Assembly: GCA_011839185.1 (NCBI GenBank) | Contig: GCA_011839185.1_3918.1 | Reading direction: 5' to 3' (one strand) | Length of the DNA: 64,000 bases | From: a phage | Part shown: one piece after another, positions 15,153 to 58,704 of the stretch | How positions within the stretch are numbered: the first letter of the stretch is position 1 | How the letters are laid out: each line of letters starts with the position of its first letter | Notes under the pieces: generated by a model | Databases searched by the model: none | The model's input: the letters and a program-made list of their open reading frames with translations, nothing else | What the model was told of the DNA's origin: nothing | Program-made: the position numbers and the translations under genes

Positions 15153-16193
15153 ATGGAGAAGTACACATTAACAAAGCTTCCCGATTCAGTTACACATGTC
15201 TTTATTGACTCTGATAGTATTGCCTATAAAGGTGCTTGTGTAGTTGAGAAAGCAAAGTATAAATACGTTAATAAACTCACAGCAGAAGAATCTGAACCAT
15301 TTGATAATGCGAAAGATGCTGCAAGATGGTTAGCAGACCAGAGAATCCTTGTGGAAGAGCTTGGCCTGACATTTGAGGAAGATGAATGGGAAAGACAAAC
15401 TTGGAAAGAAGCTAAGAGTGAAAAAGAAGCTATCATGGCTACTCAACAGGTGCTTCAGGAATGGCTTAAGATTGTTGGTAAAGAAAGAACTTGGGTAGGT
15501 TATTTAACAGAGAAGGGTGTGCATAAACATAAAGACATTAAAGGTCTTGAGCACCAATATCAAGGTAATCGTAAAGATGCTGTCACACCAACACACTTAG
15601 TCGCTTGTCGTGAATACCTTTTATCCAGACCAGAGTTCAAGCTCTTAAAGGGGGGCTTCGAAGCCGATTCAATCGTAATTGCTAAAGCTGAAAAGATGGG
15701 TAAGAAGGCTGCTCTTATGAGTATTGACAAAGACCTTCGACAAGCTGAAGGAACTTATTGTATTGATATGACTTATGAAAAATCACCACTAATCTTTATT
15801 GCTGATAACAATGTTGGTGATATCTGGGATTGTCCTATCAAATCAAAACCAAAAGCTGCAAAAACAGTTGGTGTAGGTTTTAAATTCTTGTGCTATCAGG
15901 CTGTTGCTGGAGATAATGCAGACAACTACTTCGGGCTTAAAGGTGCTGGTAAAGTGGCTGTGATGAATGCTTTAGATGGTAAAGAGACCTACAAAGAGTG
16001 TCTTGATGCTATCTATGAACTCTATGCTAAAAAAGACTCTTACACCTATGTATCATGGGATGGACAGACAGTTACAAAGACACCGTTAGAGCTAATGGAA
16101 CAGCATTTCTGGATAGCTTATCAAGAAAGAAATCCAAAAGATAATTTCTCTTTTAAGAAATATAATTGGGAGCCGTGTATGAATGAAGATTAA
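15153..16193 (+). CDS. 5'-3' exonuclease / flap endonuclease
   Basis: GFEADSIVIA (FEN GxEADD-like) and H3TH-like FGLKGAGKVAVMNAL. Confidence 0.7.
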   Translation: MEKYTLTKLPDSVTHVFIDSDSIAYKGACVVEKAKYKYVNKLTAEESEPFDNAKDAARWLADQRILVEELGLTFEEDEWERQTWKEAKSEKEAIMATQQVLQEWLKIVGKERTWVGYLTEKGVHKHKDIKGLEHQYQGNRKDAVTPTHLVACREYLLSRPEFKLLKGGFEADSIVIAKAEKMGKKAALMSIDKDLRQAEGTYCIDMTYEKSPLIFIADNNVGDIWDCPIKSKPKAAKTVGVGFKFLCYQAVAGDNADNYFGLKGAGKVAVMNALDGKETYKECLDAIYELYAKKDSYTYVSWDGQTVTKTPLELMEQHFWIAYQERNPKDNFSFKKYNWEPCMNED

Positions 16194-16680
16194 AGGATTT
16201 GGCAATTGCCCCACCTATGGTCATTGGGTGTCTTTATGTGGGGAAGTTGACCCCACTAAACATTTTGGTTTTGTCTATTTAGTACACTGTAAGAAAACCG
16301 GACAATATTATATCGGAAAGAAACAGCTTAATAGTGTGACTAAAAGAAAAGTTGCTGGCAAGACTCGGAAGAAGGTAGTCACTAAGGAGAGTGATTGGAT
16401 GACTTATGAAACTTCTTCTGAGTATATTAAAAAAGATATTGAGAGCTTTGGAAAAGAATTTTTTGACTTTTACATTATTCAGACCTACTACACAAAAGGT
16501 GGCCTAGTCTATGGTGAAGCAAATCTTCAACATAAATTCGATGTAATGACAAAAAGGATTGACTCTAAGCTCAGACTCTTTTACAATGCCAATATTGCAG
16601 CAATTAAGTTTATTACTAAAGAAACTTATGAAGATGCTGAAAAAAGAATCTATAAGGTAATGAAAGCAAACTGTGCTTGA
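16183..16680 (+). CDS. GIY-YIG domain protein (possible homing endonuclease)
   Basis: FVYLVHCKKTGQYYIGKK fits the GIY...YIG spacing. Confidence 0.45.
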   Translation: MKIKGFGNCPTYGHWVSLCGEVDPTKHFGFVYLVHCKKTGQYYIGKKQLNSVTKRKVAGKTRKKVVTKESDWMTYETSSEYIKKDIESFGKEFFDFYIIQTYYTKGGLVYGEANLQHKFDVMTKRIDSKLRLFYNANIAAIKFITKETYEDAEKRIYKVMKANCA

Positions 16681-16686
16681 TAACTA

Positions 16687-16950
16687 TTGAGAGAGAATAA
16701 AATGTTTAATAAAAGCAAAGCTGTGAGTCATGTAGCAAAAGTTGACAGTAAGATTGAAGAACTTGAGCGCATTCTTGCAAATGCTAGAGAGTTGATAATT
16801 AAAGAAGTTGAAGCTGTTGAATCTCAAATGCAGCACCTAATGCTTAAACGCCAAGAGCTACGTGAACATCTGGAATATATTGAAACACGAGAGCTAAAGG
16901 TTAACAGATATTTTAAGGAGTCCGAATGTTTAACTCAAGAGAATCAGTAA
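16687..16950 (+). CDS. hypothetical protein (87 aa)
   Basis: ORF only. Confidence 0.4.
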   Translation: MRENKMFNKSKAVSHVAKVDSKIEELERILANARELIIKEVEAVESQMQHLMLKRQELREHLEYIETRELKVNRYFKESECLTQENQ

Positions 16951-17681
16951 AAAACTGGAATCTTCGTTGCGGAAAAACTCAAAAACAACCATACAGTAAT
17001 GAGTATTGGGAGTCTTTGAAATCTCAATCTCTGTGTATGCTTGAAGAAGCAAAAGAGCTTGTAAAAGCAATTGAAGAGAAAGACCCCATTGAGACACTGG
17101 ATGCTCAGGCAGATTTGCAATATGTTCTTGACGGTTTGATTTACCTGTCACAACATGACCATAACGGTGCTATGAAAGCTGTTTGCCATAATAATGACCT
17201 GAAATACACAGACGATTATGAAGAAGCTTTAAAACGTCTTGCAGATATTGAGAAGCGTACTGGTCAAGATTGTATTGTCAGAATGTCAGTAGTTGATGGT
17301 AAAGAGTGGTACGCAATTGTTCGTGTAGCCGATGGGAAGATTATGAAGCAATCGAATCTCCCAAAAGTACAGCTTGGTGAATACATTGTAGAACTTGAAA
17401 GCCAAGAACTTTTTGTGGTAGTATCTGAGACATGCGTTATCTGCAAAGGTATTGTAGGTAGCTTAAAGGATTTGGGTGTAGATGGTTTTGTAGAAGTTAA
17501 TCCAATTACCTCTAAAGCAGATAAAGACTTCTGTAAAGAGAACGGACTATGGATTGCAGATATTGTCTACTATGATGGTGAGCAGTTCCATGTAACCTCA
17601 TACCCGAAACTGAATTATGATGCTAATAACCTGAAGTGCTGGTTAAAAGGGGTTGGTTATAATGGATTCACAGAACATTAA
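16926..17681 (+). CDS. hypothetical protein (251 aa)
   Basis: ORF only. Confidence 0.45.
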   Translation: MFNSRESVKNWNLRCGKTQKQPYSNEYWESLKSQSLCMLEEAKELVKAIEEKDPIETLDAQADLQYVLDGLIYLSQHDHNGAMKAVCHNNDLKYTDDYEEALKRLADIEKRTGQDCIVRMSVVDGKEWYAIVRVADGKIMKQSNLPKVQLGEYIVELESQELFVVVSETCVICKGIVGSLKDLGVDGFVEVNPITSKADKDFCKENGLWIADIVYYDGEQFHVTSYPKLNYDANNLKCWLKGVGYNGFTEH

Positions 17682-22466: not shown

Positions 22467-24611
22467 ATGAACAAAGTACAGATTATTAAAAAGAATGGCT
22501 CACTTGAAGAACCTGATATCAAAAAAGTTTTAGCAGCAGTAACTAAGTCAGCTAACAGGGTTGGGTATAAAGAACTTCCACCAGATGTTACCCAAGCTCT
22601 TGAGTCAGCATTCATGAGGATTCTGGTGAAGTCCACTAAGCAGAATAATTTGCTCATCTCGGTAAATGACATTCACAGTATTGTTGAGGGTGCTTTGGCA
22701 GAAGTCAATCACGAGATTTACGAGTCTTACTCAACATATAGAAATTACCGTAAAGAGGTTGCTCAAAATTGGGATGAGCTTTACCAAAAGACTAGAGACA
22801 CACTCTTCTTAGGTGACCGTGAAAATGCCAACTTTGACAGCAGTTTAATTTCTACAAAAGGTTCAATTATTCGTGGTTATCTGACTAAAGAAATCTTTAA
22901 ACAATACCATTTAACACCAGAGGAACTTGAAGCCATTGAAAAAGGGTTTATCTACATCCATGACTTAAGAGACTTAATTTTTGGTGGTATTAACTGCTGC
23001 TTGTTTGACATTGGTAAAGTACTGAAAGGTGGCTTTGAAATGTCTGGCATCGAATATTGTGAACCGAAGTCTGTGCTGTCGGCCTTACAAGTTATTGGTG
23101 ACGTAGTTCTTTCAGCAACTGCACAGCAATTTGGTGGCTTTACTTTAGCAGAGATTGACAAGGTACTTGTACCGTATGCTAAGAAGTCTCTACGCTATCA
23201 TGCTGAGAAAGCAACATCTTATGGTATTCCTAAAGAACATTACCATAATTATGTCATGGAGCAGTTACAGATTGAATTAACTCAAGGTTTCCAATCACTT
23301 GAAATGAAGCTAAACACTGTACCTTGCAGCCGTGGTGATTTCGCATTCACAACTTTAACATTTGGTTTACTTGACTCAGATATGTCTAATGAAGACAACC
23401 GATTACAATACATGATTGCAAGTACTCTCCTAGATGTTCGTATGAATGGACAAGGGAAGAGCAAGAAGCCTGTTGTATTTCCTAAACTGGTTTATATTTA
23501 TGACCAGAAGAGGCATGATGAAAATATCTGTCAAGGTCAACTGTACAGTAAAGCCATTGAGTGTTGCTCTAAAGCAATGTATCCAGATTTCTTAAGTGTA
23601 TCTGGTCATGGTGCTGTAGCAGAGGCTTTTGAGCGTTCTGGCAAGGTAATTTCACCGATGGGTTGCAGAGCCTTCTTATCTCCATATCTTAATGAGGATG
23701 GAGAAGAGTTCTATGTTGGTCGTGCTAATATTGGTGCTGTATCTTTGAACTTACCAATGATTTATCAGTACGCCAAAGAGAATGGTTTAGATTTCTGGAA
23801 AGAGCTTGATAAGTACCTAGAGATGATTCGCAGCTTCCACAAGAAACGCTACGAAATGATTGCTAATATGCCAGCAAGTTCTAACCCTCTTGCATTCACA
23901 CAAGGTGGTCTGTACAAAGGAACTAAGAAACCTACTGACAAGGTTGGTTGGGATATTGTGAAGTCCTTCACAGCTTCTTTTGGGGTTACTGCGCTTGATG
24001 AGTTATCTGTTCTTGCTGAGGGTAAACGACTTCATGAAGTTGGAAGCTATAGTTTTGCATACGATGTTCTGGCATACATCAACATGAAAACTGAAGAGTT
24101 TAAAAACGAAGATGGCTTCTTATATGCCGTCTATGGTACTCCAGCAGAATCACTTTGTGGAACTCAACTAAAACAGTTCAGAGATATGCTTGGCGTTATT
24201 AAAGGTGTTTCTGACAAGGAATACTTCACAAACAGTTTTCATATGAATGTTGCAGCAGACATCTCACCATTTGAGAAGCAGGACTTAGAAGAGCCATTCT
24301 TCCATATCTGTAGAGGTGGCAGAATCCAGTATGTAAGGGTGGCTAACCCAGAAAACTTATCAGCACTTAAAAGCTGTATTACAAGAGGCATGTTGAAAGG
24401 TTTTTATCAGGGACTTAACTTTGACTTAGCAATCTGTGAGCATTGTGGTAACAGGCCAAAGGCTGATGTTGAAGAATGTGAAGTTTGTCACTCACATGAT
24501 ATCTCTGTGATTAACAGGGTGTGTGGGTATCTTGGATGGACTAAGATTAAAGGTGAATCCCGAATGAACGATGCAAAAATCGCTGAGATTCGTGATAGAG
24601 TCTCTATGTAA
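22467..24611 (+). CDS. nrdD: anaerobic ribonucleoside-triphosphate reductase (class III)
   Basis: 714 aa; C-terminal CEHCG...CEVCH Zn site and glycyl-radical motif RVCGYLG. Confidence 0.9.
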   Translation: MNKVQIIKKNGSLEEPDIKKVLAAVTKSANRVGYKELPPDVTQALESAFMRILVKSTKQNNLLISVNDIHSIVEGALAEVNHEIYESYSTYRNYRKEVAQNWDELYQKTRDTLFLGDRENANFDSSLISTKGSIIRGYLTKEIFKQYHLTPEELEAIEKGFIYIHDLRDLIFGGINCCLFDIGKVLKGGFEMSGIEYCEPKSVLSALQVIGDVVLSATAQQFGGFTLAEIDKVLVPYAKKSLRYHAEKATSYGIPKEHYHNYVMEQLQIELTQGFQSLEMKLNTVPCSRGDFAFTTLTFGLLDSDMSNEDNRLQYMIASTLLDVRMNGQGKSKKPVVFPKLVYIYDQKRHDENICQGQLYSKAIECCSKAMYPDFLSVSGHGAVAEAFERSGKVISPMGCRAFLSPYLNEDGEEFYVGRANIGAVSLNLPMIYQYAKENGLDFWKELDKYLEMIRSFHKKRYEMIANMPASSNPLAFTQGGLYKGTKKPTDKVGWDIVKSFTASFGVTALDELSVLAEGKRLHEVGSYSFAYDVLAYINMKTEEFKNEDGFLYAVYGTPAESLCGTQLKQFRDMLGVIKGVSDKEYFTNSFHMNVAADISPFEKQDLEEPFFHICRGGRIQYVRVANPENLSALKSCITRGMLKGFYQGLNFDLAICEHCGNRPKADVEECEVCHSHDISVINRVCGYLGWTKIKGESRMNDAKIAEIRDRVSM

Positions 24612-26287: not shown

Positions 26288-26608
26288 ATGAGCAAAGTTT
26301 ATAACACTCGCAAATTACAGATTTTCGTACTGTGCCAGTTTATGGCTAAAGAATACAACTTCTACTATTGTGGTACAGGTTTTATTAGTGATGATGATGG
26401 CTCATACCTTCCATTCAAAGAAGCTGTGAAGCTCTTTAATGAAGAGGAAAGCTCTAAGAAAGATATTGAAAAGGTGAAACTGACCTACAGCAAGAAAGAT
26501 AAGAAGATTATCTGCCTAGATAACTTTGTAAAAGTTACTGGAAAAGCAAAAGAGCTTATGGATGAGAGTGAGATTCCATTCACAAGCCTCTTGAAAGTAG
26601 CTCAGTAA
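26288..26608 (+). CDS. hypothetical protein (106 aa)
   Basis: ORF only. Confidence 0.4.
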   Translation: MSKVYNTRKLQIFVLCQFMAKEYNFYYCGTGFISDDDGSYLPFKEAVKLFNEEESSKKDIEKVKLTYSKKDKKIICLDNFVKVTGKAKELMDESEIPFTSLLKVAQ

Positions 26609-26621
26609 GCAGATACTATAA

Positions 26622-26650
26622 GGGAACTGTAAAGGTTCCCTTTTTATTTT
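26622..26650 (+). terminator. rho-independent terminator
   Basis: GGGAAC..GTTCCC hairpin then TTTTTATTTT. Confidence 0.55.
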
Positions 26651-26659
26651 GGAGATAGT

Positions 26660-27175
26660 ATGTACCTGTCAAATCTGAAACGTTCTGCTGCAATGTCAGT
26701 GTTAAGACTCAGTTTTGAGGAACGTCAAGAGTTCATTGACTCCCACCAATACGACCCTTCCAACTCCAATCACATGATTCTCTGGAATCGTGAGAGTACT
26801 CGTGAAAGAGCATTATTTCGATATTACCCACACTACACCATAGATAATCTGTATGAATGTTTTGTTGTGAAGAACACCATTACAGTACTCAATAAACTTT
26901 GCAGATACACAGGCAGTCAATCCTTCACATTAGGTCATCACAAACCTGTTACAAAAGGTGGTGAACATCACTGTGCAAACTGGTTTATCCAAACTAAAGC
27001 TGATAACCAGAAGCAAGGAGATAGCCTCCTAAGTATCCCTAAGATGACCTATGAAGAGCAAGAGAAATATATCAAAAATAATATGCCAGATGTGCTTGAC
27101 AACAACTATACAGATTTGGCAATATCTCTCCTGTTGAAGTTCGAGACAGTTTATAGGGCAACTTATAATGGCTAA
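26660..27175 (+). mobile_element. HNH endonuclease (free-standing)
   Basis: HHKPVTKGGEHHCANWFIQTKADNQKQGD resembles an HNH motif. Confidence 0.55.
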
Positions 27176-27446
27176 AGAAAAGTGGGAGATTTTACCATTA
27201 GTCAGTGAAGGAGGTAATGGTTGTGAAATGTACATGATACGTGGTCATGTTCCAGAGCCAATTGCACTTGAGATGGTAAACAACTTTACAGATGGTTCTT
27301 ACAAAGACTTAGGCGAACCAACTGTCAAGCAACAATGGGTTAAACCTGTACCAGACAGCACAGGTAACTGTAGTGTACTTTATCACGTTGTAGACCCTGC
27401 AAAATGCAAATCTGCAATGGCAGTAACAAACGTAACTTTTGATTGA
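27168..27446 (+). CDS. hypothetical protein (92 aa)
   Basis: ORF only. Confidence 0.4.
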   Translation: MAKEKWEILPLVSEGGNGCEMYMIRGHVPEPIALEMVNNFTDGSYKDLGEPTVKQQWVKPVPDSTGNCSVLYHVVDPAKCKSAMAVTNVTFD

Positions 27447-27461
27447 GAGAGAGAGAAAACT

Positions 27462-28343
27462 ATGAAAACAACTATCCGAGTTCTGCTTAATGCTAATACT
27501 AAAGGTAGCATTCAAGAAGTCTTTAACATTATCCAATTCCCGTCTGGTGAGATTGGTGGCAACTTCTCCGAAGACTTTGTTGGATTTGCTGAAAAATTTG
27601 CTGGACAGATTGATAATGCTTTCTTCGCAGTGCAAGGCTATGACAAAGATACGCTATTTGCATTAGCTCTGGCTAAAGAGGCAGTTGATAAATTGGTTCC
27701 TCAAGGTTCAGCTACGAAGACAGTTGTTTTTGGATTCTTACCAAACGCACGTTATGACCGTCACATGTTTAAAGGTGATGCAGCAGCCCTTAAGGTATTT
27801 GCTAATTTGGTAAATGCAATGGAGTTTGATGCAGTATGTGCTTTGGACACTCACAGTAACGTTGCAGAAAACCTTTTCAAGTGCTTCCACAACTTACCTC
27901 AGAAAGAGTTTGCAGCACACTTTGCAAGTGACCCTCGCATTGATTACTTGGTAGCTCCAGATGCAGGTGCAGCTAAGAAGACTGAAGAGACTGCTAAAGA
28001 GGTTGACAAGCCTTACATTACAATGGCAAAAGTTCGCAACCTGAAAACTGGTGAAATCACTGGTATGCGACTTCTCGATGATGTAGACTTAACTGGTAAA
28101 ACCGTCATGATTCTTGATGATATTTGTGATGGTGGTCGAACATTCGTAGAGGCTGCAAAGTGTCTTCGTGAAGCTGGAGCAGAACGTGTGGAACTGTATG
28201 TGACACATGGTATTTTCTCTAAAGGTGTCCAGAACCTTCTTTACAATGGTATTGACCATGTTTATACTACAAACTCTTTAGGAAATGCTGAAGACCGTGG
28301 GTTATCACATTTCAACAAAGTAACTGTAGCAAACCTTGATTAA
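27462..28343 (+). CDS. ribose-phosphate pyrophosphokinase (PRPP synthetase) family protein; candidate ADPR-PP synthetase of a NARP1-type pathway
   Basis: PRTase-type PRPP-binding motif VMILDDICDGGRT; size and layout of Prs family; adjacent to Nampt-family gene. Confidence 0.75.
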   Translation: MKTTIRVLLNANTKGSIQEVFNIIQFPSGEIGGNFSEDFVGFAEKFAGQIDNAFFAVQGYDKDTLFALALAKEAVDKLVPQGSATKTVVFGFLPNARYDRHMFKGDAAALKVFANLVNAMEFDAVCALDTHSNVAENLFKCFHNLPQKEFAAHFASDPRIDYLVAPDAGAAKKTEETAKEVDKPYITMAKVRNLKTGEITGMRLLDDVDLTGKTVMILDDICDGGRTFVEAAKCLREAGAERVELYVTHGIFSKGVQNLLYNGIDHVYTTNSLGNAEDRGLSHFNKVTVANLD

Positions 28344-28352
28344 AACTTTATA

Positions 28353-28374
28353 GGGGCTTTTAAGCCCCATTTTG
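28353..28374 (+). terminator. short hairpin between the two NAD-salvage genes
   Basis: GGGGCTTTTAAGCCCC then ATTTT. Confidence 0.35.
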
Positions 28375-28388
28375 AGAGAGATTAAAAG

Positions 28389-30170
28389 ATGACTAAATCA
28401 CTTTATGCAGTACCAGCAGGTTTAAACGCAGATGCTTACAAATCTGGTCACATTTACCAGTATCCTAGTGCAACAGAATACTTGATGTTCAACCTAACAC
28501 CACGTAGTGACAAATGGTTTAACAGCCCTTTAGCAATTGACGGTGTAGTGGCTTTTGGTATTCAACGTTTTGTTAAAGATTACCTGATAGACCACTGGAA
28601 CGCCACCTTCTTTGAACGTGACAAAAAAGAAGCAATTGATGAAATCTTAGAAGTCATGAACGGTGTTCTGGGTAAAGATGCTATTGGTCGAGAGCATTGG
28701 GAAGCACTCCATGACTTAGGTTATCTACCAGTTGAAGTATACGCTGTAGAAGAAGGCACAGTTGTCCCTATGCGTGTACCAATTATTGTCTTCCAGAACA
28801 CTGTTTCAGGTTTCCATTGGGTAGCGGGGTATCTTGAAGATGCTTTCTCTGCTGAGATTTGGAAGGCTTGTACCATTGCAACTATTGCATTGCACTACAA
28901 ACGTATCTGTAAGAAGTGGGCTGACCTTACTTGTGACAACGACTTGCATTTACCTTATCAGTGCCATGACTTTGCTATGCGTGGTATGTCCGGCTTTACT
29001 GATGACGCATTTAACGCTGTAGGACACTTAACCAGCTTTAAAGGAACTGATAGTTTCCCTGCTGTGTATACAGCTAAACGCATCTATGGGCAGTCCTACC
29101 CAATCTCTGATATTGGTAGTTCTGTACCAGCCACTGAACACTCTGTAATGTGTGCAAACATTGCTTGGGAAGGTGGTAATGAATTGATTGAAGAAGAAAG
29201 ACGCTTCAAAGGTGAGTTGCAAACCTTCCGTCGCTTCTTAACAGAGACTTACCCGACTGGTATTGCAAGTATTGTTTCAGACACTTATAACTTCTGGAGA
29301 ACTGTGTCAGAAATCTTGCCAGCACTTCGCAAAGAGATTATGGAACGTGACGGTAAACTGGTAATTCGTCCTGACTCTGGAGACCCTGTACATATTGTCA
29401 CAGGTTATAAAGCAATCCACTTAGAGTGTGCTAAAAAGGCTTATTATGAACACCTAAGCAAGCTGGAAGCCAGTGACACAATGCTGAATGCTGTTCTGAA
29501 CATGAAGCTTGAGAATATCAACTATGGTATTGCTGGATGGCTACTGTCAGAAGGCTATGAAATGGTTGTTGACAGAGAAGACTTTGAAGTTGCTGATACA
29601 GTGATGTTGAAAAATGCTTATATGGTTGGTTCTGCAAACGTTGTAACACGTCCTGTAGCAGAGATTGATGGGGCCATTAAGACCCTGTATAACATCTTTG
29701 GAGGAACTATCAACTCTAAAGGGTTTAAGGTACTGGATGAGCACATTGGACTTATCTATGGTGACTCTATCACGTTGGAACGTGCAAACGAAATCCTGAA
29801 GCGTTTGTATGAAATGGGTTTTGCAAGTTCTAACGTAGTGTTTGGTGTAGGTTCTTACACTTACCAGTACATGACTCGTGACACCTTTGCATTTGCTGTC
29901 AAAGCAACTCTTGCGAGCATTGGTGGTAAAGAGATTATGCTTGCAAAAGACCCTAAAACAGATAGTGGTATTAAGAAGTCTGCTTTTGGTGGTGTAGCCC
30001 CTATGTGGGATGGTGAGAACCTGAAAGCTGTAGATGGCTATGGATTCCAGAGTTTTGCAGATGCACTTGAACACCCAGCTTGTGCTTTACGTCTAGTCTT
30101 TAGCGACTCTGAGCAGTTCGGCTACACAACTCTTGGCGATATTCGAAATAATATTGACAAGCAGCTTTAA
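28389..30170 (+). CDS. nicotinamide phosphoribosyltransferase family protein (Nampt/NadV-like; candidate Namat)
   Basis: Matches to Nampt motifs as recalled: NADAYKSGH, HDFAMRGMSGF...FKGTDS, VPATEHSVM, IRPDSGDP. Confidence 0.85.
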   Translation: MTKSLYAVPAGLNADAYKSGHIYQYPSATEYLMFNLTPRSDKWFNSPLAIDGVVAFGIQRFVKDYLIDHWNATFFERDKKEAIDEILEVMNGVLGKDAIGREHWEALHDLGYLPVEVYAVEEGTVVPMRVPIIVFQNTVSGFHWVAGYLEDAFSAEIWKACTIATIALHYKRICKKWADLTCDNDLHLPYQCHDFAMRGMSGFTDDAFNAVGHLTSFKGTDSFPAVYTAKRIYGQSYPISDIGSSVPATEHSVMCANIAWEGGNELIEEERRFKGELQTFRRFLTETYPTGIASIVSDTYNFWRTVSEILPALRKEIMERDGKLVIRPDSGDPVHIVTGYKAIHLECAKKAYYEHLSKLEASDTMLNAVLNMKLENINYGIAGWLLSEGYEMVVDREDFEVADTVMLKNAYMVGSANVVTRPVAEIDGAIKTLYNIFGGTINSKGFKVLDEHIGLIYGDSITLERANEILKRLYEMGFASSNVVFGVGSYTYQYMTRDTFAFAVKATLASIGGKEIMLAKDPKTDSGIKKSAFGGVAPMWDGENLKAVDGYGFQSFADALEHPACALRLVFSDSEQFGYTTLGDIRNNIDKQL

Positions 30171-30182
30171 AAGTATATGATA

Positions 30183-30208
30183 AGAGGCTCCTACGGGAGC
30201 CTTTTTAA
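30183..30208 (+). terminator. rho-independent terminator
   Basis: AGGCTCC TACG GGAGCCT followed by TTTTT. Confidence 0.55.
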
Positions 30209-30223
30209 TTTCTGGAGAAGATT

Positions 30224-30559
30224 ATGAAAATCAAAGAAATGAACATCAATATTGTCTTAGAAGAACGCTGGGAGAACATCAAGAAGCCTGAAAATGGTCA
30301 TAAGTTCCTCAACAAAATCTTAGTAGCAGCTAAAGAAGAACTGACTGGCAAGATTGCAGCAGCAGTCACAATAAAAGTTTGTGTAAAAGGTCTTCCAGAC
30401 AACCACCAATTTGCGCTTGACGAGTTTAAAAAAAGCTTCTACAATCCAAACAAACAGATGCTTGAAAGTAACTTTGCAGTATCTACAAGTATCGTCCATG
30501 ACAGAAGCTTTATCCTTTACAAAAATATGAGAGGTGAGTCATGCAAGCATATTGGATAG
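30224..30559 (+). CDS. hypothetical protein (111 aa)
   Basis: ORF only. Confidence 0.4.
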   Translation: MKIKEMNINIVLEERWENIKKPENGHKFLNKILVAAKEELTGKIAAAVTIKVCVKGLPDNHQFALDEFKKSFYNPNKQMLESNFAVSTSIVHDRSFILYKNMRGESCKHIG

Positions 30560-37652: not shown

Positions 37653-38438
37653 ATGGGTATTGTAAAAATCATCAATGGCGATATCTTTGCCGCATTTGAT
37701 AAAGGTAAGTTTGACATTATTGGTCACGGTTGCAACTGTATGAATTTAATGGGTGCAGGTATCGCTGACAAGATTTCTAAACTTTACCCAAAAGCATATG
37801 AGACAGATACAGAAGTCTATCTATATGCAGGTGGCATAGGTCACAAACCCTGTGAAAATTTACTGGGTAATTTCTCTGTAGCACGTTTAAAACAAGGTCG
37901 TATAGCTAACCTTTACACTCAGCTTAAGACTGGTAAAGATGCCCGATACAGTGCTTTAGAGTCATCTTTGAAACAGCTTAACAGATACTGTGAAGTTAAT
38001 CAGTTGAAGAAAGTTGGTTTACCTATGATTGGTGCAGGTATAGGTGGGCTGGACCCTCAAGCTGTCACAGTTATCATCAATCAGGTGATGAAGAGTGTAG
38101 ATGTTTATCTGTATGTCTATGAAGGAGAGATGTACCACAAGTTACGCTCAGGTTGGAAGAACTACTGTGAACCAGAATACTTTGCAGGTGTAGCAGTGTT
38201 CACGGATAACGCAGTTACCCTCTTCAGACGAAGAAAAGGTAAGATACATCAAAGTAACCCTCCGGTTGAAAGGATGTCTCTAAGTAACGCTCTAGTTACC
38301 CACCTGTCGAAGAGCAATCACAGAATAGCTGTGACATTTGGTAGTGATGCAGATGCTTACATCTATGCAAGAACTGATGAGGATATCGAGGCAATTTTCT
38401 CATCACCGGAAGTTACCTTCTTAGACGCAAAGAACTAA
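37653..38438 (+). CDS. macro-domain (ADP-ribose binding/processing) protein
   Basis: INGDIF...DIIGHGCNCMNLMGAGIA and LPMIGAGIGG resemble macro-domain signature regions as recalled from YmdB/MacroD. Confidence 0.65.
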   Translation: MGIVKIINGDIFAAFDKGKFDIIGHGCNCMNLMGAGIADKISKLYPKAYETDTEVYLYAGGIGHKPCENLLGNFSVARLKQGRIANLYTQLKTGKDARYSALESSLKQLNRYCEVNQLKKVGLPMIGAGIGGLDPQAVTVIINQVMKSVDVYLYVYEGEMYHKLRSGWKNYCEPEYFAGVAVFTDNAVTLFRRRKGKIHQSNPPVERMSLSNALVTHLSKSNHRIAVTFGSDADAYIYARTDEDIEAIFSSPEVTFLDAKN

Positions 38439-39135: not shown

Positions 39136-39338
39136 TTTACAGCCGTGAATTGATGGTTACAACTAACGTTAACACAAAGGTAAAACGTTTTTACATGCAA
39201 ATCTGTGGCGTATGGTCCAGAATATCAGAAGCCGACTATTGCAACTATGTAGAAACGGCAATCAACTCGAATTGCTACCTTACAAGAAACACTAAGAATT
39301 TTACAAGGCAGACAGCGATTTACTACTACGATAAATAA
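39132..39338 (+). CDS. small hypothetical protein (68 aa)
   Basis: ORF overlapping previous stop. Confidence 0.4.
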   Translation: MIYSRELMVTTNVNTKVKRFYMQICGVWSRISEADYCNYVETAINSNCYLTRNTKNFTRQTAIYYYDK

Positions 39339-39424
39339 AGTACTTTACAAGGGGCTTATAGTTCGATAGAGTAAGCCCCAGATAAAGAGCTTTACTAACT
39401 AACCTTAAACTAGGAGATTCTAAA
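39338..39424. repeat. intergenic cassette family A (stem-loop plus conserved box plus RBS)
   Basis: AAGTACTTTACA-GGGGCTTA..TAAGCCCC-AGATAAAGAGCTTTAC...CTAAACTAGGAGATTCTAAA; copies also near 39806, 40186, 41258, 42050, 43320. Confidence 0.7.
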
Positions 39425-39805
39425 ATGGCTTATCGTGCACCGAAATTCATCAACAAAGACAACTTTCGCAACGTACTGGAGAAGGCACTTGATGAAAAAT
39501 TTAAAGGTAACATTATTATTGTTCACTCATTCAATTTTAAGTATGACATCAACGGGAATAAAATCAACCATTACACGGCAACAATGATAGACGGTACGTT
39601 ATCAAGTGAAAAAGCCGTACTGAATGCACTTGCTGGACGTGGTAAAAACCTGATAAGCTGCAATAAGAGACGTTATCAAGGTGGCGCATATGGTTATGAT
39701 GATGCTGTTTACCATCTTGAAAATATGGGCTATTCAGTGGAGAAAGCTGGAGCGTCTCAAATAATTGGTAGTGATGGTTATGTGACAATATTCAAAATTA
39801 ACTGA
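39425..39805 (+). CDS. small hypothetical protein (126 aa)
   Basis: ORF with conserved upstream cassette. Confidence 0.45.
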   Translation: MAYRAPKFINKDNFRNVLEKALDEKFKGNIIIVHSFNFKYDINGNKINHYTATMIDGTLSSEKAVLNALAGRGKNLISCNKRRYQGGAYGYDDAVYHLENMGYSVEKAGASQIIGSDGYVTIFKIN

Positions 39806-39893
39806 TAAAGTACTTTACAAGGGGCTTATAGTTCGATAAAGTAAGCCCCAGATAAAGAGCTTTACCACTCAATCCTAAATTGGAGATTCTAAA

Positions 39894-40184
39894 ATGGCTA
39901 TTATCAAAAACGTTGTAATTCCTGCAAAAACTCGTGATGACGCTCGCATCATGGCGAAAAAGTTAGGCGGGAAAGTGGTTGACAATGGAAAACAATCTGC
40001 TGTAAGATGGGGCGTAAAGGCTGATAAACAGTTGAAGCTAAAAAATTCACCGATAAACCTTTTTACATGTGTAAGCACTATCGGGAAGACAAATGTATAC
40101 ACGAAAAAGGCATATATTAGACGCATAACCTTAACATCCCCCATTCGTACAATGAGAAGTTATGCAAAGCTGAAAATTAACTGA
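39894..40184 (+). CDS. small hypothetical protein (96 aa)
   Basis: ORF with conserved upstream cassette. Confidence 0.45.
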   Translation: MAIIKNVVIPAKTRDDARIMAKKLGGKVVDNGKQSAVRWGVKADKQLKLKNSPINLFTCVSTIGKTNVYTKKAYIRRITLTSPIRTMRSYAKLKIN

Positions 40185-40272
40185 TAAAGTACTTTACAGG
40201 GGGCTTAAAAGTTGATATCTTAAGCCCCAGATAAAGAGCTTTACCACTAAATCCTAAACTGGAGATTCAAAA

Positions 40273-56423: not shown

Positions 56424-56497
56424 CTCTGTTTAGCTCAGCTTGGTAGAGCGTTCCGTTTGGGGCGGTAAGGCCGGAGGTTCAAGTCCTCCAACAGAGA
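56424..56497 (+). tRNA. tRNA-Pro (anticodon TGG)
   Basis: Cloverleaf by eye: acceptor ctctgtt/aacagag, anticodon loop tttgggg, T-loop ttcaagt, CCA encoded. Confidence 0.75.
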
Positions 56498-56507
56498 CCA
56501 AATTAAT

Positions 56508-56582
56508 GTTCCAGTGGACAAAATGGTAAAGTCACCACTCTTTCAAAGTGGATATTTGAGGGTTCAAATCCCTTCTGGAACG
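56508..56582 (+). tRNA. tRNA-Glu (anticodon TTC)
   Basis: Acceptor gttccag/ctggaac, anticodon loop ctttcaa, T-arm gaggg-ttcaaat-ccctt, CCA encoded. Confidence 0.75.
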
Positions 56583-56676
56583 CCAGTTTTGACAGAAGAC
56601 CAATTACAGCAAACTTAATCTTATTCATCTGAAGGTAAATCGGACAAAGAAGAGATTTGGTCTGGTCATTAAGAAT

Positions 56677-56750
56677 TGCGGGTATAGAGAAAGGGCGTCT
56701 CACATGTCTCATTAGCATGGTATCGGCAGGTTCGACTCCTGCACCCGCCT
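56677..56750 (+). tRNA. tRNA with CAT anticodon (Met or Ile-lysidine type)
   Basis: Anticodon loop ctcatta; 1-72 mismatch; T-arm gcagg-ttcgact-cctgc; CCA encoded. Confidence 0.6.
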
Positions 56751-56836
56751 CCAAATTTACAGAAGACCGTTTACAGCAATATTTATTAAATTTTTAGCGG
56801 AAAAATTGAAAGATACGGTCTGGTAATACTAAACAT

Positions 56837-56910
56837 GGTTAGGAAGCACATAAGGTATGTGCGGTCGCCTGTTAAGCGAATGGCACAGGGTTCGAATCCC
56901 TGACTAACCG
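56837..56910 (+). tRNA. tRNA-Asn (anticodon GTT)
   Basis: Anticodon loop ctgttaa; T-arm caggg-ttcgaat-ccctg; CCA encoded. Confidence 0.7.
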
Positions 56911-56982
56911 CCAAATTTAGGAGAGAAGCGATTGCTCACCGATTTGTAAGGTGCAAGTCCTTAGCCTGAATAGAAATCAAAT

Positions 56983-57067
56983 GTGTCGTTATCCCGTAGA
57001 TGGTAGCGGTGGGGACTGTAAATCCCTTGTCATTGAGACTCGGTAGGTTCGACTCCTACACGGCACA
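56983..57067 (+). tRNA. tRNA-Tyr (anticodon GTA), long variable arm
   Basis: 85 nt; anticodon loop ctgtaaa; acceptor gtgtcgt/acggcac; CCA encoded. Confidence 0.7.
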
Positions 57068-57075
57068 CCAATAAA

Positions 57076-57150
57076 GGTTATGTAGTTTAATTTGGTTAAA
57101 ATACTCCCCTGTCACGGGAGATGATGAGGGTTCAAATCCCTTCGTAACCG
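57076..57150 (+). tRNA. tRNA-Asp (anticodon GTC)
   Basis: Anticodon arm ctccc-ctgtcac-gggag; T-loop ttcaaat; CCA encoded. Confidence 0.7.
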
Positions 57151-57298
57151 CCAATTTTGAGAGGGCTATTTAGCCCCTCCCTTAAAGGGTTCTTACGAGT
57201 ATCCTTTAAAGGAGCAGAAGACCAAATACAGCAAGTTACTTAAAATTTCAAGCCAATTTAATTTTGAAAAATTTAAAACTTGGTCTGGCTCAACAAAT

Positions 57299-57432
57299 TT
57301 ACAGAAGACCGTTTACAGCAAAACTTAAACAATCTATTTCTCGGTAAAGAAAAGGCGAAGGTTCGATTCCTTCACTCGGCAGATGTCGAGTTGGTGTAAT
57401 GGTAGCACTTAAGATGATAAACAACGGTCTGG
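57299..57432 (+). ncRNA. candidate structured spacer RNA with tRNA-like T-arm (unit 4 of a repeated family)
   Basis: Conserved 5' box CAGAAGACCGTTTACAGCAA pairs with 3' ACGGTCTGG; contains canonical T-arm gaagg-ttcgatt-ccttc (57357-57373) without matching 5' acceptor, and a D-arm-like agttggtgtaatggtagcac. Confidence 0.4.
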
Positions 57433-57581
57433 TAATTATCTTTGTAGATAAGTTATTAAGCTTACCTGTGAGTATGCGACCACAAAGGGTGAAAGGGTAA
57501 ATTCTAGATTTAAACCTAAAAAGGCACATCGCTACAGACCTTAAGCAAGTCTGGGTAGCTTATCTACAAAGATAATTTAAT

Positions 57582-57654
57582 GGAAGTGTAGCAGAATGGT
57601 GATGCGGCAGACTTTTAATCTGACAGGCGATGGGTTCGAATCCCTCCACTTCTA
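57582..57654 (+). tRNA. tRNA-Lys (anticodon TTT)
   Basis: Anticodon loop cttttaa; acceptor ggaagtg/cacttct; weak T-stem; CCA encoded. Confidence 0.65.
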
Positions 57655-57735
57655 CCAAATTCACCCTTAACTGAGAAACACCTGCGCGGCTGGAAACACC
57701 CACTCAACAGTTTCTCTAACTAGGGTACTTATTCT

Positions 57736-57809
57736 GGTTCAGTCGCAGATAAGGTAATGCAAGGGTCTCATAAGCCCTATGAATGTGGGTTCGATTCCCA
57801 TCTGAACCT
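57736..57809 (+). tRNA. tRNA with CAT anticodon (Met or Ile-lysidine type)
   Basis: Anticodon arm agggt-ctcataa-gccct; acceptor ggttcag/ctgaacc; CCA encoded. Confidence 0.7.
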
Positions 57810-57828
57810 CCAATTCGTTGGTGATATT

Positions 57829-58314
57829 ATGTTTTGTGCTAATAAAGATTGTGACAACAAAGCCGTTAAAGGTGGAAAGTATTGTTCACGCTCTTGTGCT
57901 GCAAGGGTAAACAACAAGAGTCATCCAAAAAGAAGACAAGAAGGCTCTTGTCATTCATGTGGAAAGCAGACACCAAAATCAAGAAAGTATTGTGATGAAT
58001 GTATTTCAAATGGTATTCTGAAACAATACAAAAACCCCGATGAAGAAAAGAAAGCGAAGTCACAACACGTTAAAAAGTCTCGTGACAAACTTAAGAGGGT
58101 TTTAGTTGATTACAAAGGTGGTTGTTGCTCAATTTGTGGATACAATAAGTGCATAAAGGCTTTAGAGTTTCACCACTTAGACCCTAATACAAAGGACTTC
58201 ACAGTAGGACAAAAACACTTCTCTATAGAGGTAATGAAGTCTGAAGTTGATAAGTGTGTATTACTGTGTGCAAATTGCCACAGAGAGGTACACGAAGGGG
58301 TAACAAAGCTGTGA
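57829..58314 (+). mobile_element. HNH endonuclease nested between tRNA genes
   Basis: C-terminal CANCHREVHEG HNH/Zn motif and multiple CxxC pairs; start reset to ATG at 57829 (track start 57757 lies inside the tRNA). Confidence 0.6.
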
Positions 58315-58380
58315 AAGCACATATGGATGTGCATTCGGCTGATAACCGAAAGGCAGAAGGTTCGAATCCTTCTCACAGTA
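58308..58380 (+). tRNA. tRNA-Ile (anticodon GAT)
   Basis: Anticodon arm ttcgg-ctgataa-ccgaa; T-arm gaagg-ttcgaat-ccttc; 5' end overlaps the HNH stop codon. Confidence 0.7.
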
Positions 58381-58398
58381 CCAATTTCAATAAAGTTG

Positions 58399-58427
58399 TT
58401 GACATTGAGATGTGACTACTTTATAGT
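58399..58427 (+). promoter_or_regulatory. sigma70-like promoter inside tRNA cluster
   Basis: TTGACA, 17-nt spacer, TATAGT. Confidence 0.45.
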
Positions 58428-58630
58428 AACCTTAGTTTTCGTTGCGTAGCGTCTATTTTGCAAATTTAAAATAAATGCAAACGACAATGTTTTTCTGGCA
58501 GTAGCTTGATAGGCTAAACACCAGTGAGGTCTTCCAATCCCTCATCAAAGAATTTGGCGTACTCGCCCACGGTATGATTAATAAGGTGGGCATCTTTAAG
58601 GGCTTTCTAAGAGAGTCTTTAAAGATTAAT

Positions 58631-58704
58631 GCACCCTTAGTTCAACTGGACAGAGCAAATGACTTCTAATCATTGAGTTACAGGTTCGAATCCTGTAGGG
58701 TGTG
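58631..58704 (+). tRNA. tRNA-Arg (anticodon TCT)
   Basis: Anticodon arm aatga-cttctaa-tcatt; acceptor gcaccct/agggtgt; CCA encoded. Confidence 0.75.

What the first reader, a model, noticed from the sequence alone, without database searches (positions are those of the whole stretch)
27462..30170. Adjacent PRPP-synthetase-like and Nampt-like genes: candidate NAD+ reconstitution (NARP1-type) counter-defence module
A 293-aa Prs-family protein carrying the PRTase PRPP-binding motif VMILDDICDGGRT sits directly upstream of a 593-aa protein with Nampt hallmarks (HDFAMRGMSGF...FKGTDS, IRPDSGDP). No NMN adenylyltransferase (HxGH-type) partner is visible nearby. From what I recall of the literature, this two-gene architecture matches a phage pathway reported recently as NARP1, in which the Prs homolog pyrophosphorylates ADP-ribose and the Nampt homolog joins it to nicotinamide to rebuild NAD+ after host NADase-based defences (Thoeris, DSR, SIR2 and similar). 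The classical reading (PRPP synthesis feeding Nampt to make NMN) is the alternative. Either way it is an auxiliary NAD-maintenance module in a replication-gene neighbourhood.
Basis: partly seen in the sequence, partly recalled or inferred. Interest (0 to 1): 0.85.

Follow-up and report, generated by a model that had tools for sequence, protein, structure and literature searches.

The report
Known phage NAD-rebuilding operon (NARP1)
These two adjacent genes are the Felix-O1-type phage copy of the published NARP1 pathway, which rebuilds NAD+ from the fragments left by bacterial NAD-destroying defences.

Summary
Both ORFs exist exactly as described: 27462-28343 (293 aa, Prs-like) and 28389-30170 (593 aa, Nampt-like), on the + strand and 45 nt apart. 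The window is a Felixounavirus genome. NARP1 was discovered in a Felixounavirus, Bas63/JohannRWettstein, genes 79-80. Those genes have the same lengths and spacer, and their products are 81% (Adps) and 98% (Namat) identical to the window proteins.

The Namat carries the published ADPR-PP selectivity motif (GSYTYQYMTRD) and the residues at all 20 NAD+-contact positions of the solved SPbetaL1 Namat, identical or conservatively substituted. The Adps keeps the catalytic Lys/Arg loop but fails every NCBIfam equivalog cut-off for true Prs. No NMNAT, Nudix or RyR gene is found in the window, so this is NARP1, not NARP2.

Two side observations may be new.
- adps behaves as a gene-sized allelic cassette (dS 1.2 against Bas63), while namat is nearly invariant across about 200 phages.
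- A Macro-domain protein 7.5 kb downstream (37653-38438) falls in the same PHROG as the validated NARP1-associated ADPR-1''-P phosphatase Adpp. About 60% of phage records with an Adps homologue also carry such a homologue, against about 4% of the others. This hints at a dispersed NARP1-AP.

The parts
27462..28343 (+). adps: ADP-ribose diphosphokinase (ADPR-PP synthetase), a Prs-family protein of 293 aa
   Evidence: ORF. Pfam Pribosyltran and Pribosyl_synth. 81% aa identity to Bas63 gp79 and 100% to phage H12. K190/R192 align with the catalytic K162 loop of SPbetaL1 Adps. It fails all NCBIfam Prs equivalog cut-offs, e.g. 106 bits against 296.
28353..28368 (+). Conserved hairpin (GGGGCT-TTTA-AGCCCC, followed by AUUUU) in the 45-nt adps-namat spacer, ahead of a purine-rich ribosome-binding site. 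Possible partial terminator or RNA-stability element.
   Evidence: Sequence. The stem is conserved in Bas63 while the loop differs. Fold -13.3 kcal/mol, z=-2.2. Function is inferred only.
28389..30170 (+). namat: nicotinamide ADP-ribose transferase, a Nampt-family protein of 593 aa
   Evidence: ORF. 98% identity to Bas63 gp80. Best solved structures are 9w5w/9w5x; their sequence is 100% identical to SPbetaL1 Namat over the 483 aligned residues (E=3e-127). SCH motif G488-S-Y-T-Y-Q-Y-M-T-R-D498. Contact positions D15, Y17, K42/W43, F195, R198, D221, H251, R327, D329, G458, D459.
30154..30205 (+). Promoter-like site (TTGACA-16-TATGAT, 11 of 12 matches) overlapping the namat stop codon, followed by a terminator-like hairpin (30182-30205, 10-bp stem plus T-run). 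This marks the 3' boundary of the unit.
   Evidence: The sequence is identical in Bas63 and H12.
26591..26642 (+). Upstream promoter-like site plus hairpin module of the same design. Likely 5' boundary of a four-ORF unit: 26660-27175, 27168-27446, adps, namat.
   Evidence: Whether the two small upstream ORFs (phrog_3500 and phrog_4726, function unknown) belong functionally is unknown.
37653..38438 (+). Macro-domain protein of 261 aa (annotated 'putative phosphatase'). Candidate distal accessory, Adpp-like; not shown to act with the pair.
   Evidence: Pfam Macro E=1e-7. Same PHROG (phrog_335) as the validated Adpp of Vibrio phage Gary. 27-36% identity to NARP1-adjacent Adpp proteins. Co-occurrence estimate.

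Best explanation
The two genes are the NARP1 (NAD+ reconstitution pathway 1) operon of a Felixounavirus. When a host NADase defence (SIR2-HerA, DSR1/2, type I Thoeris, SEFIR and similar) cleaves NAD+ to ADP-ribose and nicotinamide, Adps (27462-28343) transfers a pyrophosphate from ATP to the 1'' position of ADPR, giving ADPR-PP. Namat (28389-30170) then displaces that pyrophosphate with nicotinamide and regenerates NAD+ directly, with no NMN intermediate and no NMNAT. What is shown here: orthology to the type operon, conserved catalytic and selectivity residues, gene order, and absence of an NMNAT. What is inferred by orthology: the two enzyme activities and the anti-defence phenotype. The activities were demonstrated biochemically for the SPbetaL1 homologues, and the phenotype genetically and metabolomically for Bas63.
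For: 1. The window is a Felixounavirus: 258 phage records match the pair, the best being vB_EcoM_H12 at 97.7% nt, and the window is collinear with Bas63 and H12 over about 45 kb.
2. Bas63 genes 79/80 have identical lengths (293 and 593 aa) and the same 45-nt spacer. Protein identity to the window is 81% and 98%.
3. [quoted passage not shown]
4. Published evidence for SPbetaL1: Adps acts on ADPR and yielded no product in the Prs control reaction (R5P + ATP per the figure legend), and Namat prefers ADPR-PP over PRPP.
5. The Namat selectivity-clamp helix motif GSX-phi-X-phi-X-phi-TRD is present as GSYTYQYMTRD. The clamp loop has K42-W43, as described for Bas63. The residues at all 20 listed SPbetaL1 NAD+-contact positions are identical or conservatively substituted.
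6. The Adps catalytic loop K190/R192 aligns with SPbetaL1 K162, and the ATP-site residues R97, D99, R100 and H131 are invariant. The protein scores 52-106 bits against the Prs equivalog and narrow-subfamily models, whose cut-offs are 296-536.
7. Both genes are under purifying selection: dN/dS is 0.11 for adps and 0.03 for namat.
8. No NMNAT or Nudix domain is found in the window, and none is annotated in the rest of the Bas63 genome.
Against: No biochemistry exists for this exact Adps allele. It is 81% identical to Bas63 gp79 and only 29% identical to the biochemically characterised SPbetaL1 Adps, barely more than its 25% to E. coli Prs, so assignment to the Adps clade rests on orthology to Bas63 rather than on a diagnostic motif. 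Bas63 Adps itself could not be purified. Namat homologues retain PRPP-to-NMN activity in vitro, so a minor classical contribution cannot be excluded.
Confidence: 0.93

Rival explanations
1. Classical salvage: the Prs-like enzyme makes PRPP from ribose-5-phosphate, the Nampt-like enzyme makes NMN, and host NadR or PncC completes NAD+ synthesis.
For: Pfam and NCBIfam name the proteins Prs and NAPRTase/Nampt family, and GenBank records annotate them that way. Namat homologues can make NMN from PRPP in vitro.
Against: [quoted passage not shown] SPbetaL1 Adps gave no product in the Prs control reaction. The window Adps fails all true-Prs equivalog cut-offs. The Namat carries the adenine-clamp motif that Nampt lacks.
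Confidence: 0.04
2. NARP2-like pathway: the Nampt homologue acts with a phage NMN adenylyltransferase encoded elsewhere in the genome.
For: About 20% of phage Namat/Nampt homologues occur without Adps and work this way, e.g. in KVP40.
Against: No CTP_transf_like or Nudix domain is found in any scanned ORF of the 64-kb window. None is annotated in the part of the Bas63 genome outside the window. An Adps gene is adjacent. Osterman et al. found no phage with both pathways.
Confidence: 0.01
3. Extended, dispersed NARP1-AP: the pair works as NARP1 and is additionally fed by the Macro-domain protein at 37653-38438. That protein would convert ADPR-1''-phosphate (the product of aRES-type NAD+ phosphorylases) or another ADPR derivative into ADPR. 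This extends the best explanation rather than competing with it.
For: The Macro domain is in the same PHROG as the validated Adpp of Vibrio phage Gary. It is 27-36% identical to published NARP1-adjacent Adpp proteins, which are 24-60% identical to each other. A fusion-query tblastn shows at least about 830 of about 1,400 Adps-bearing phage records also carry this Macro homologue, against about 4% of the other records. These come from several unrelated lineages: Felixounavirus, phi92-like phages, ~157-161-kb Salmonella/Enterobacter phages, and Bacillus and Rhodococcus phages.
Against: The gene is 7.5 kb and about 17 genes from the operon. Homologues are common in T4-like phages, which gave only the Macro match in the same search. 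The KGD...KLG motif shared by most adjacent Adpp proteins is absent here. The co-occurrence figure is not corrected for phylogeny or genome size. Macro domains have many other activities, such as de-ADP-ribosylation and O-acetyl-ADPR deacetylation.
Confidence: 0.3

Closest known systems
NARP1 of Escherichia phage JohannRWettstein (Bas63), genes bas63_0079/0080 (Osterman et al. 2024)
   Same: Same genus, same genomic position between nrdG and rIIA, same gene lengths (293 and 593 aa) and the same 45-nt spacer with its hairpin. Namat is 98% identical and Adps 81% identical.
   Different: The adps allele is a different cassette: 77% nt identity, dS 1.2. The window also lacks the small ORF bas63_0081 just downstream of namat.
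NARP1 of Bacillus phage SPbetaL1 (biochemically characterised; Namat structures 9w5w/9w5x)
   Same: Gene order adps then namat. Catalytic Lys of Adps (K162 = K190). All Namat NAM/NMN/AMP contact positions and the SCH motif.
   Different: Only 29% (Adps) and 47% (Namat) identity. The window Namat has an insertion of about 77 aa (residues ~350-427) that SPbetaL1 lacks. The clamp loop is 4 residues longer and uses K42-W43 instead of R40.
NARP1-AP of Vibrio phage Gary (Adps-Adpp-Namat; Osterman et al. 2026 preprint)
   Same: Adps and Namat homologues (34% and 41% identity). A Macro protein of the same PHROG exists in the window genome.
   Different: In the window the Macro gene is not in the operon but 7.5 kb downstream, and it carries an extra C-terminal region of about 100 aa. 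No Felix-like phage appears in that paper's Table S1.
NARP2 (Nampt + bifunctional Nmnat, Vibrio phage KVP40)
   Same: Uses a Nampt-family enzyme to restore NAD+ against NADase defences.
   Different: NARP2 needs an NMNAT and uses PRPP. The window has an Adps and no NMNAT.
Housekeeping Prs and Nampt (e.g. E. coli Prs, human or Xanthomonas Nampt)
   Same: Same folds and the same core catalytic residues.
   Different: The Adps scores far below the Prs equivalog cut-offs, and the Thr of the ribose-5-phosphate loop DTGGT is replaced (DGGRT). The Namat has the aromatic adenine-clamp motif GSYTYQYMTRD. Human Nampt, from my own recollection, has GSGGGLLQKLTRD there.

Membership tests
NARP1 | Adjacent, co-oriented adps then namat gene pair | tested here: met
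   27462-28343 and 28389-30170, both on the + strand, 45 nt apart.
NARP1 | First gene belongs to the Adps subfamily of Prs (orthology to a validated Adps), not to housekeeping Prs | tested here: met
   81% identity to Bas63 gp79 at the same genomic position. Scores 52-106 bits against the Prs equivalog and narrow-subfamily models, whose cut-offs are 296-536. No independent phylogeny was built here.
NARP1 | Adps catalytic loop lysine (SPbetaL1 K162) and ATP-site residues retained | tested here: met
   K190 and R192 align with K162 and R164. R97, D99, R100 and H131 are invariant across 5 Adps proteins and E. coli Prs.
NARP1 | Namat catalytic core (F189, R192, D215, phospho-His, R306, D308 in SPbetaL1 numbering) | tested here: met
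   F195, R198, D221, H251, R327 and D329 are conserved.
NARP1 | [quoted passage not shown] | tested here: met
   G488-S-Y-T-Y-Q-Y-M-T-R-D498, with Y490 and Y494 aromatic (motif definition; mapping).
NARP1 | Selectivity-clamp loop supplying a stacking residue (Arg at position 3, or Lys/Tyr followed by the stacking residue) | tested here: met
   The loop S40-D-K42-W43 is identical to Bas63 Namat, whose AlphaFold3 model uses the fourth residue for stacking.
NARP1 | Adps converts ADPR + ATP to ADPR-PP and does not make PRPP; Namat converts ADPR-PP + nicotinamide to NAD+ | not testable with these tools
   Shown in vitro for the SPbetaL1 homologues, and in vivo (ADPR-PP detection) for Bas63.
NARP1 | The operon lets the phage overcome NAD+-depleting defences | not testable with these tools
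   Shown for the Bas63 delta-79-80 mutant on SIR2-HerA hosts.
NARP2 | NMN adenylyltransferase (Nmnat/NatV; CTP_transf_like, with or without Nudix) encoded by the phage | tested here: not met
   No such Pfam domain in 96 window ORFs scanned. None is annotated in the rest of the Bas63 genome.
NARP1-AP | Macro-domain Adpp gene within the NARP1 operon (within two genes either side) | tested here: not met
   The four flanking ORFs on each side have no Macro domain.
NARP1-AP | Phage encodes an Adpp-family Macro protein | tested here: inconclusive
   37653-38438 has a Pfam Macro domain, is in phrog_335 together with Gary Adpp, and is 27-36% identical to listed Adpp proteins. It is distal, lacks the KGD...KLG motif, and its activity is unknown.
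NARP1 with RyDEP | RyR-domain (PF02026) gene inserted in the operon | tested here: not met
   No RyR hit in any window ORF. Compare DyoEdafos gp78.
Housekeeping Prs (ribose-phosphate diphosphokinase) | Passes an NCBIfam equivalog model; intact DTGGT ribose-5-phosphate loop | tested here: not met
   Only the broad subfamily model TIGR01251 is passed (130.8 bits against 113). All equivalog models fail. The loop reads DGGRT.

The most novel reading that the evidence does not exclude
Felixounaviruses, and roughly half of the other NARP1 phages, may run a dispersed version of NARP1-AP. In this reading the Macro-domain 'phosphatase' at 37653-38438, encoded 7.5 kb from the operon and therefore missed by the published search (two genes either side), converts ADPR-1''-phosphate or another ADPR derivative to ADPR and so feeds Adps. 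That would extend NARP1 protection to aRES-type NAD+ phosphorylases. Separately, the cassette-like hypervariability of adps next to a nearly invariant namat could reflect a host factor that targets or senses Adps.
Probability: 0.3. Interest if true: 0.4.

Novelty: already known. Interest (0 to 1): 0.15.

Why it matters
As given, the finding re-identifies a published counter-defence system in the phage genus where it was discovered. Its practical value is annotation: GenBank still labels these genes 'ribose-phosphate pyrophosphokinase' and 'nicotinamide phosphoribosyltransferase', which hides an anti-defence module relevant to choosing therapeutic phages. The two side observations would matter modestly if confirmed. 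A distal Adpp-like Macro gene would mean that the reach of NARP1 against aRES-type defences is underestimated by operon-only searches. Allelic cassette exchange confined to adps would point to selection acting on the first enzyme of the pathway.

Tried and rejected
- I guessed the Bas63 accession. MZ501111 turned out to be Bas51. The BASEL accessions run alphabetically by phage name, so I bracketed the target with MZ501083 and MZ501087 and reached MZ501086.
- The first Python call failed because loci are stored several to a file.
- The 'NAD synthetase' annotated upstream in phage H12 looked like an extra NAD gene. The window homologue (16183-16680) is a GIY-YIG SegE-like endonuclease, so I rejected it as part of the system.
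- The MazG-like ORF (16926-17681) only hits PRA-PH. There is no evidence linking it to NAD metabolism.
- The batch Pfam scan of 28 ORFs (alignment A2) returned zero families, which looked suspicious. Re-scanning 10 of them singly confirmed there are essentially no hits.
- In batch A1, 26 families matched but only 25 were shown, so one weak family (E>7e-4) was not seen.
- I looked for a sequence signature separating Adps from Prs. The R[ND]xxTGxI catalytic-loop pattern also occurs in archaeal class III Prs (PDB 4twb), so it is not diagnostic.
- The Adpp residues mutated in the aRES preprint appear only in a figure, so I could not check them.
- I did not run structure prediction. No Adps structure is solved, and orthology already settles the identification.
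Full report
**Observation.** All quoted peptide strings are present. Pfam assigns the first ORF to Pribosyltran and Pribosyl_synth. The second matches NAPRTase, with a just-sub-threshold NAMPT_N match (24.8 bits against 25). NCBIfam gives E=5e-38 and E=2.5e-140 respectively.

**Where the window comes from.** A megablast of the pair finds 258 phage records, almost all of them Felixounavirus or Felix-O1-like phages of Escherichia, Salmonella, Shigella and Citrobacter. The best is Escherichia phage vB_EcoM_H12 at 97.7% nt. The window is collinear with H12 and with phage JohannRWettstein (Bas63) over about 45 kb. The pair lies downstream of nrdA/B and nrdD/G and upstream of rIIA/rIIB. The window also holds 26 tRNA genes at 56.4-62.2 kb.

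**Identity with the type system.**
- NARP1 was discovered in Bas63, a Felixounavirus, as 'operon 79-80' (Osterman et al., bioRxiv 10.1101/2024.02.11.579819).
- I located Bas63 as MZ501086. Genes bas63_0079 (293 aa) and bas63_0080 (593 aa) have the same lengths, the same 45-nt spacer and the same neighbours as the window genes.
- Protein identity to the window is 81% for Adps and 98% for Namat, with no gaps.
- The paper shows that deleting 79-80 makes Bas63 sensitive to SIR2-HerA. [quoted passage not shown]
- It also shows that ADPR-pyrophosphate appears only when both the operon and the defence system are present.
- Biochemistry used the SPbetaL1 homologues because the Bas63 protein purified poorly. 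Adps converts ADPR + ATP to ADPR-PP and gave no product in the Prs control reaction. Namat converts ADPR-PP + nicotinamide to NAD+ and prefers ADPR-PP over PRPP.

**Residue-level checks on Namat.**
- The best solved structures for the window Namat are 9w5w and 9w5x (E=3e-127). Their sequence is 100% identical over the 483 aligned residues to the SPbetaL1 gene product.
- I fetched SPbetaL1, Vibrio phage Gary and Mycobacterium phage DyoEdafos, all of which have experimentally validated NARP1 operons, and aligned them with the window proteins.
- Every SPbetaL1 residue number quoted in the structural paper (PMC12774641) matches the GenBank sequence.
- These residues map to D15, Y17, K42, F195, A196, R198, D221, A248, R327, D329, G458, D459, S460, G488, S489, Y490, Y494, T496, R497 and D498 in the window protein. 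H251 is the catalytic histidine equivalent.
- The published Namat-specific motif GSX-phi-X-phi-X-phi-TRD is present as GSYTYQYMTRD.
- The variable clamp loop reads SDKWF, identical to Bas63. For Bas63 the paper reports that Lys at position 3 is followed by the stacking residue.

**Residue-level checks on Adps.**
- K190 and R192 align with the catalytic K162 loop, and the ATP-site residues are invariant.
- The protein fails every NCBIfam equivalog and narrow-subfamily model for true Prs: 52-106 bits against cut-offs of 296-536. It passes only the broad subfamily model.
- The Thr of the ribose-5-phosphate loop (DTGGT in E. coli Prs) is replaced in all five Adps proteins aligned. That this makes room for the ADP moiety is my inference.

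**Excluding NARP2 and the known operon extensions.**
- Pfam scans of 96 window ORFs found no NMNAT (CTP_transf_like), Nudix, NadR, PnuC or RyR domain.
- The part of the Bas63 genome not covered by the window is structural genes plus thymidylate synthase, DHFR and ligase.
- Osterman et al. report that no phage has both NARP1 and NARP2.
- The four ORFs flanking the pair on each side carry no Macro or RyR domain. By the published criteria the operon is therefore the plain two-gene form, not NARP1-AP or the RyDEP-containing form.

**Anatomy of the unit.**
- A promoter-like site plus a GC-rich hairpin with a T-run sits at 26591-26642.
- An almost identical module sits at 30154-30205, overlapping the namat stop codon.
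- Between them lie four tightly packed ORFs: 171 aa (phrog_3500), 92 aa (phrog_4726), adps and namat.
- The adps-namat spacer holds a hairpin, GGGGCT-TTTA-AGCCCC followed by AUUUU (28353-28368). Its stem is conserved in Bas63 while its loop differs.
- Whether these elements act as terminators, attenuators or RNA-stability elements is inference.

**Verdict on the finding.** However, this is the archetypal published NARP1, present in hundreds of sequenced relatives and covered by several later papers. It is already known, and interest is low.

**Side observation 1: adps is an allelic cassette.**
- Against Bas63, nucleotide identity is 93-96% on both flanks but 64-85% across exactly the adps ORF. 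dS is 1.2 for adps against 0.26 for namat, and both genes are under purifying selection (dN/dS 0.11 and 0.03).
- Against H12, a 100%-identical block runs from the adps start to about 560 nt into namat, with flanks at about 95%.
- Across the phage collection, Namat is at least 95% identical in 208 records. Adps is at least 90% identical in only one record (H12), 80-90% in 84 and 60-80% in 168.
- For example, phage LMP34 has a 99.5% identical Namat but a 75% identical Adps.
- This points to exchange of old adps alleles by recombination. Why the first enzyme alone varies is unexplained.

**Side observation 2: a distal Adpp-like Macro protein.**
- ORF 37653-38438 (261 aa, annotated 'putative phosphatase') has a Macro domain (Pfam E=1e-7).
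- A 2026 preprint (10.64898/2026.01.28.702374) shows that aRES defence cleaves NAD+ to ADPR-1''-P, which NARP1 cannot use. It also shows that about 15% of NARP1 operons include a Macro-domain phosphatase, Adpp, that restores ADPR. That search covered only two genes on either side of the operon, and its Table S1 lists no Felix-like phage.
- The window protein falls in the same PHROG (phrog_335) as the validated Adpp of Vibrio phage Gary. It is 27-36% identical to eight listed Adpp proteins, which are 24-60% identical to each other.
- A tblastn with a fused Adps+Macro query gave 3,269 records and 4,100 places. The single queries gave 1,397 records for Adps and 2,850 for Macro, with almost no duplicates.
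- It follows that at least about 830 records, roughly 60% of Adps-bearing records, carry both genes, against about 4% of the remaining records.
- Records with both genes include phi92-like phages, ~157-161-kb Salmonella/Enterobacter phages, and Bacillus and Rhodococcus phages.
- Several caveats apply. The count is not corrected for phylogeny or genome size, and it includes the published near-adjacent cases. T4-like phages carry the Macro homologue but gave no Adps match in that search. The window protein lacks the KGD...KLG motif of most adjacent Adpp proteins and has an extra C-terminal region of about 100 aa.
- I put the probability that it functionally feeds NARP1 at about 0.3.

**Not testable here.** Enzyme activities, defence phenotypes and transcript boundaries cannot be tested with these tools. 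The experiments that would decide them are listed under next steps.

Noticed in passing
window 37653-38438 (+): A 261-aa Macro-domain protein (annotated 'putative phosphatase') lies 7.5 kb downstream of the NARP1 pair. It is in the same PHROG (phrog_335) as the validated ADPR-1''-P phosphatase Adpp of Vibrio phage Gary. About 60% of phage records with an Adps homologue also carry such a homologue, against about 4% of the others. The published search looked only two genes either side of the operon.
   Followed up: partly
window 27450-28350, compared with L005 (Bas63) and L002 (H12): adps is a gene-sized mosaic cassette. Identity to Bas63 is 64-85% nt within flanks of 93-96% (dS 1.2 for adps against 0.26 for namat), and identity to H12 is 100%. 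Across about 250 Felixounaviruses, Namat is at least 95% identical in 208 records but Adps is at least 90% identical in only one.
   Followed up: partly
window 28353-28368: A conserved 6-bp GC hairpin followed by AUUUU sits in the 45-nt adps-namat spacer, just before the namat ribosome-binding site. It could be an intra-operon attenuator or an RNA-stability element.
   Followed up: partly
window 30223-30226 junction; L005 25509-25853; L002 22763-23107: The window lacks a 114-aa ORF (bas63_0081 in Bas63, CDS0113 in H12) that lies immediately downstream of namat in both relatives. The indel removes exactly one gene, and the shared promoter/hairpin module is kept.
   Followed up: partly
window 28389-30170, protein residues ~350-427: The Felixounavirus Namat carries an insertion of about 77 aa relative to the SPbetaL1 and DyoEdafos Namat. 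Vibrio phage Gary has a shorter insert at the same site. Its function is unknown.
   Followed up: no
window 26591-27446: Two conserved ORFs of unknown function (171 aa, phrog_3500; 92 aa, phrog_4726) sit between the upstream promoter/hairpin module and adps, so they may be co-transcribed with NARP1. By eye the 171-aa protein has an HNH-like motif (GHHKPVTKGGEHHCANW...N..K), but no Pfam HNH hit.
   Followed up: partly
window 16183-16680 (+): The homologue of the ORF annotated 'NAD synthetase' in phage H12 is actually a GIY-YIG SegE-like endonuclease (Pfam PF19835, E=9e-28). The public annotation is misleading and could be mistaken for another NAD-pathway gene.
   Followed up: yes
window 22467-24611 compared with L005 16631-19517: nrdD is uninterrupted in the window. 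In Bas63 it is split (a joined CDS) by an insertion of about 740 bp that carries a homing endonuclease gene.
   Followed up: no
window ~39300-44900: A family of 90-110-nt repeats recurs between the small + strand ORFs. It is visible as many short cross-matches to Bas63 and H12, and is probably a set of repeated promoter/terminator modules of an early-gene array.
   Followed up: no
window 56424-62203 (+): A cluster of 26 tRNA genes covers most amino acids, including two tRNA-Met.
   Followed up: no
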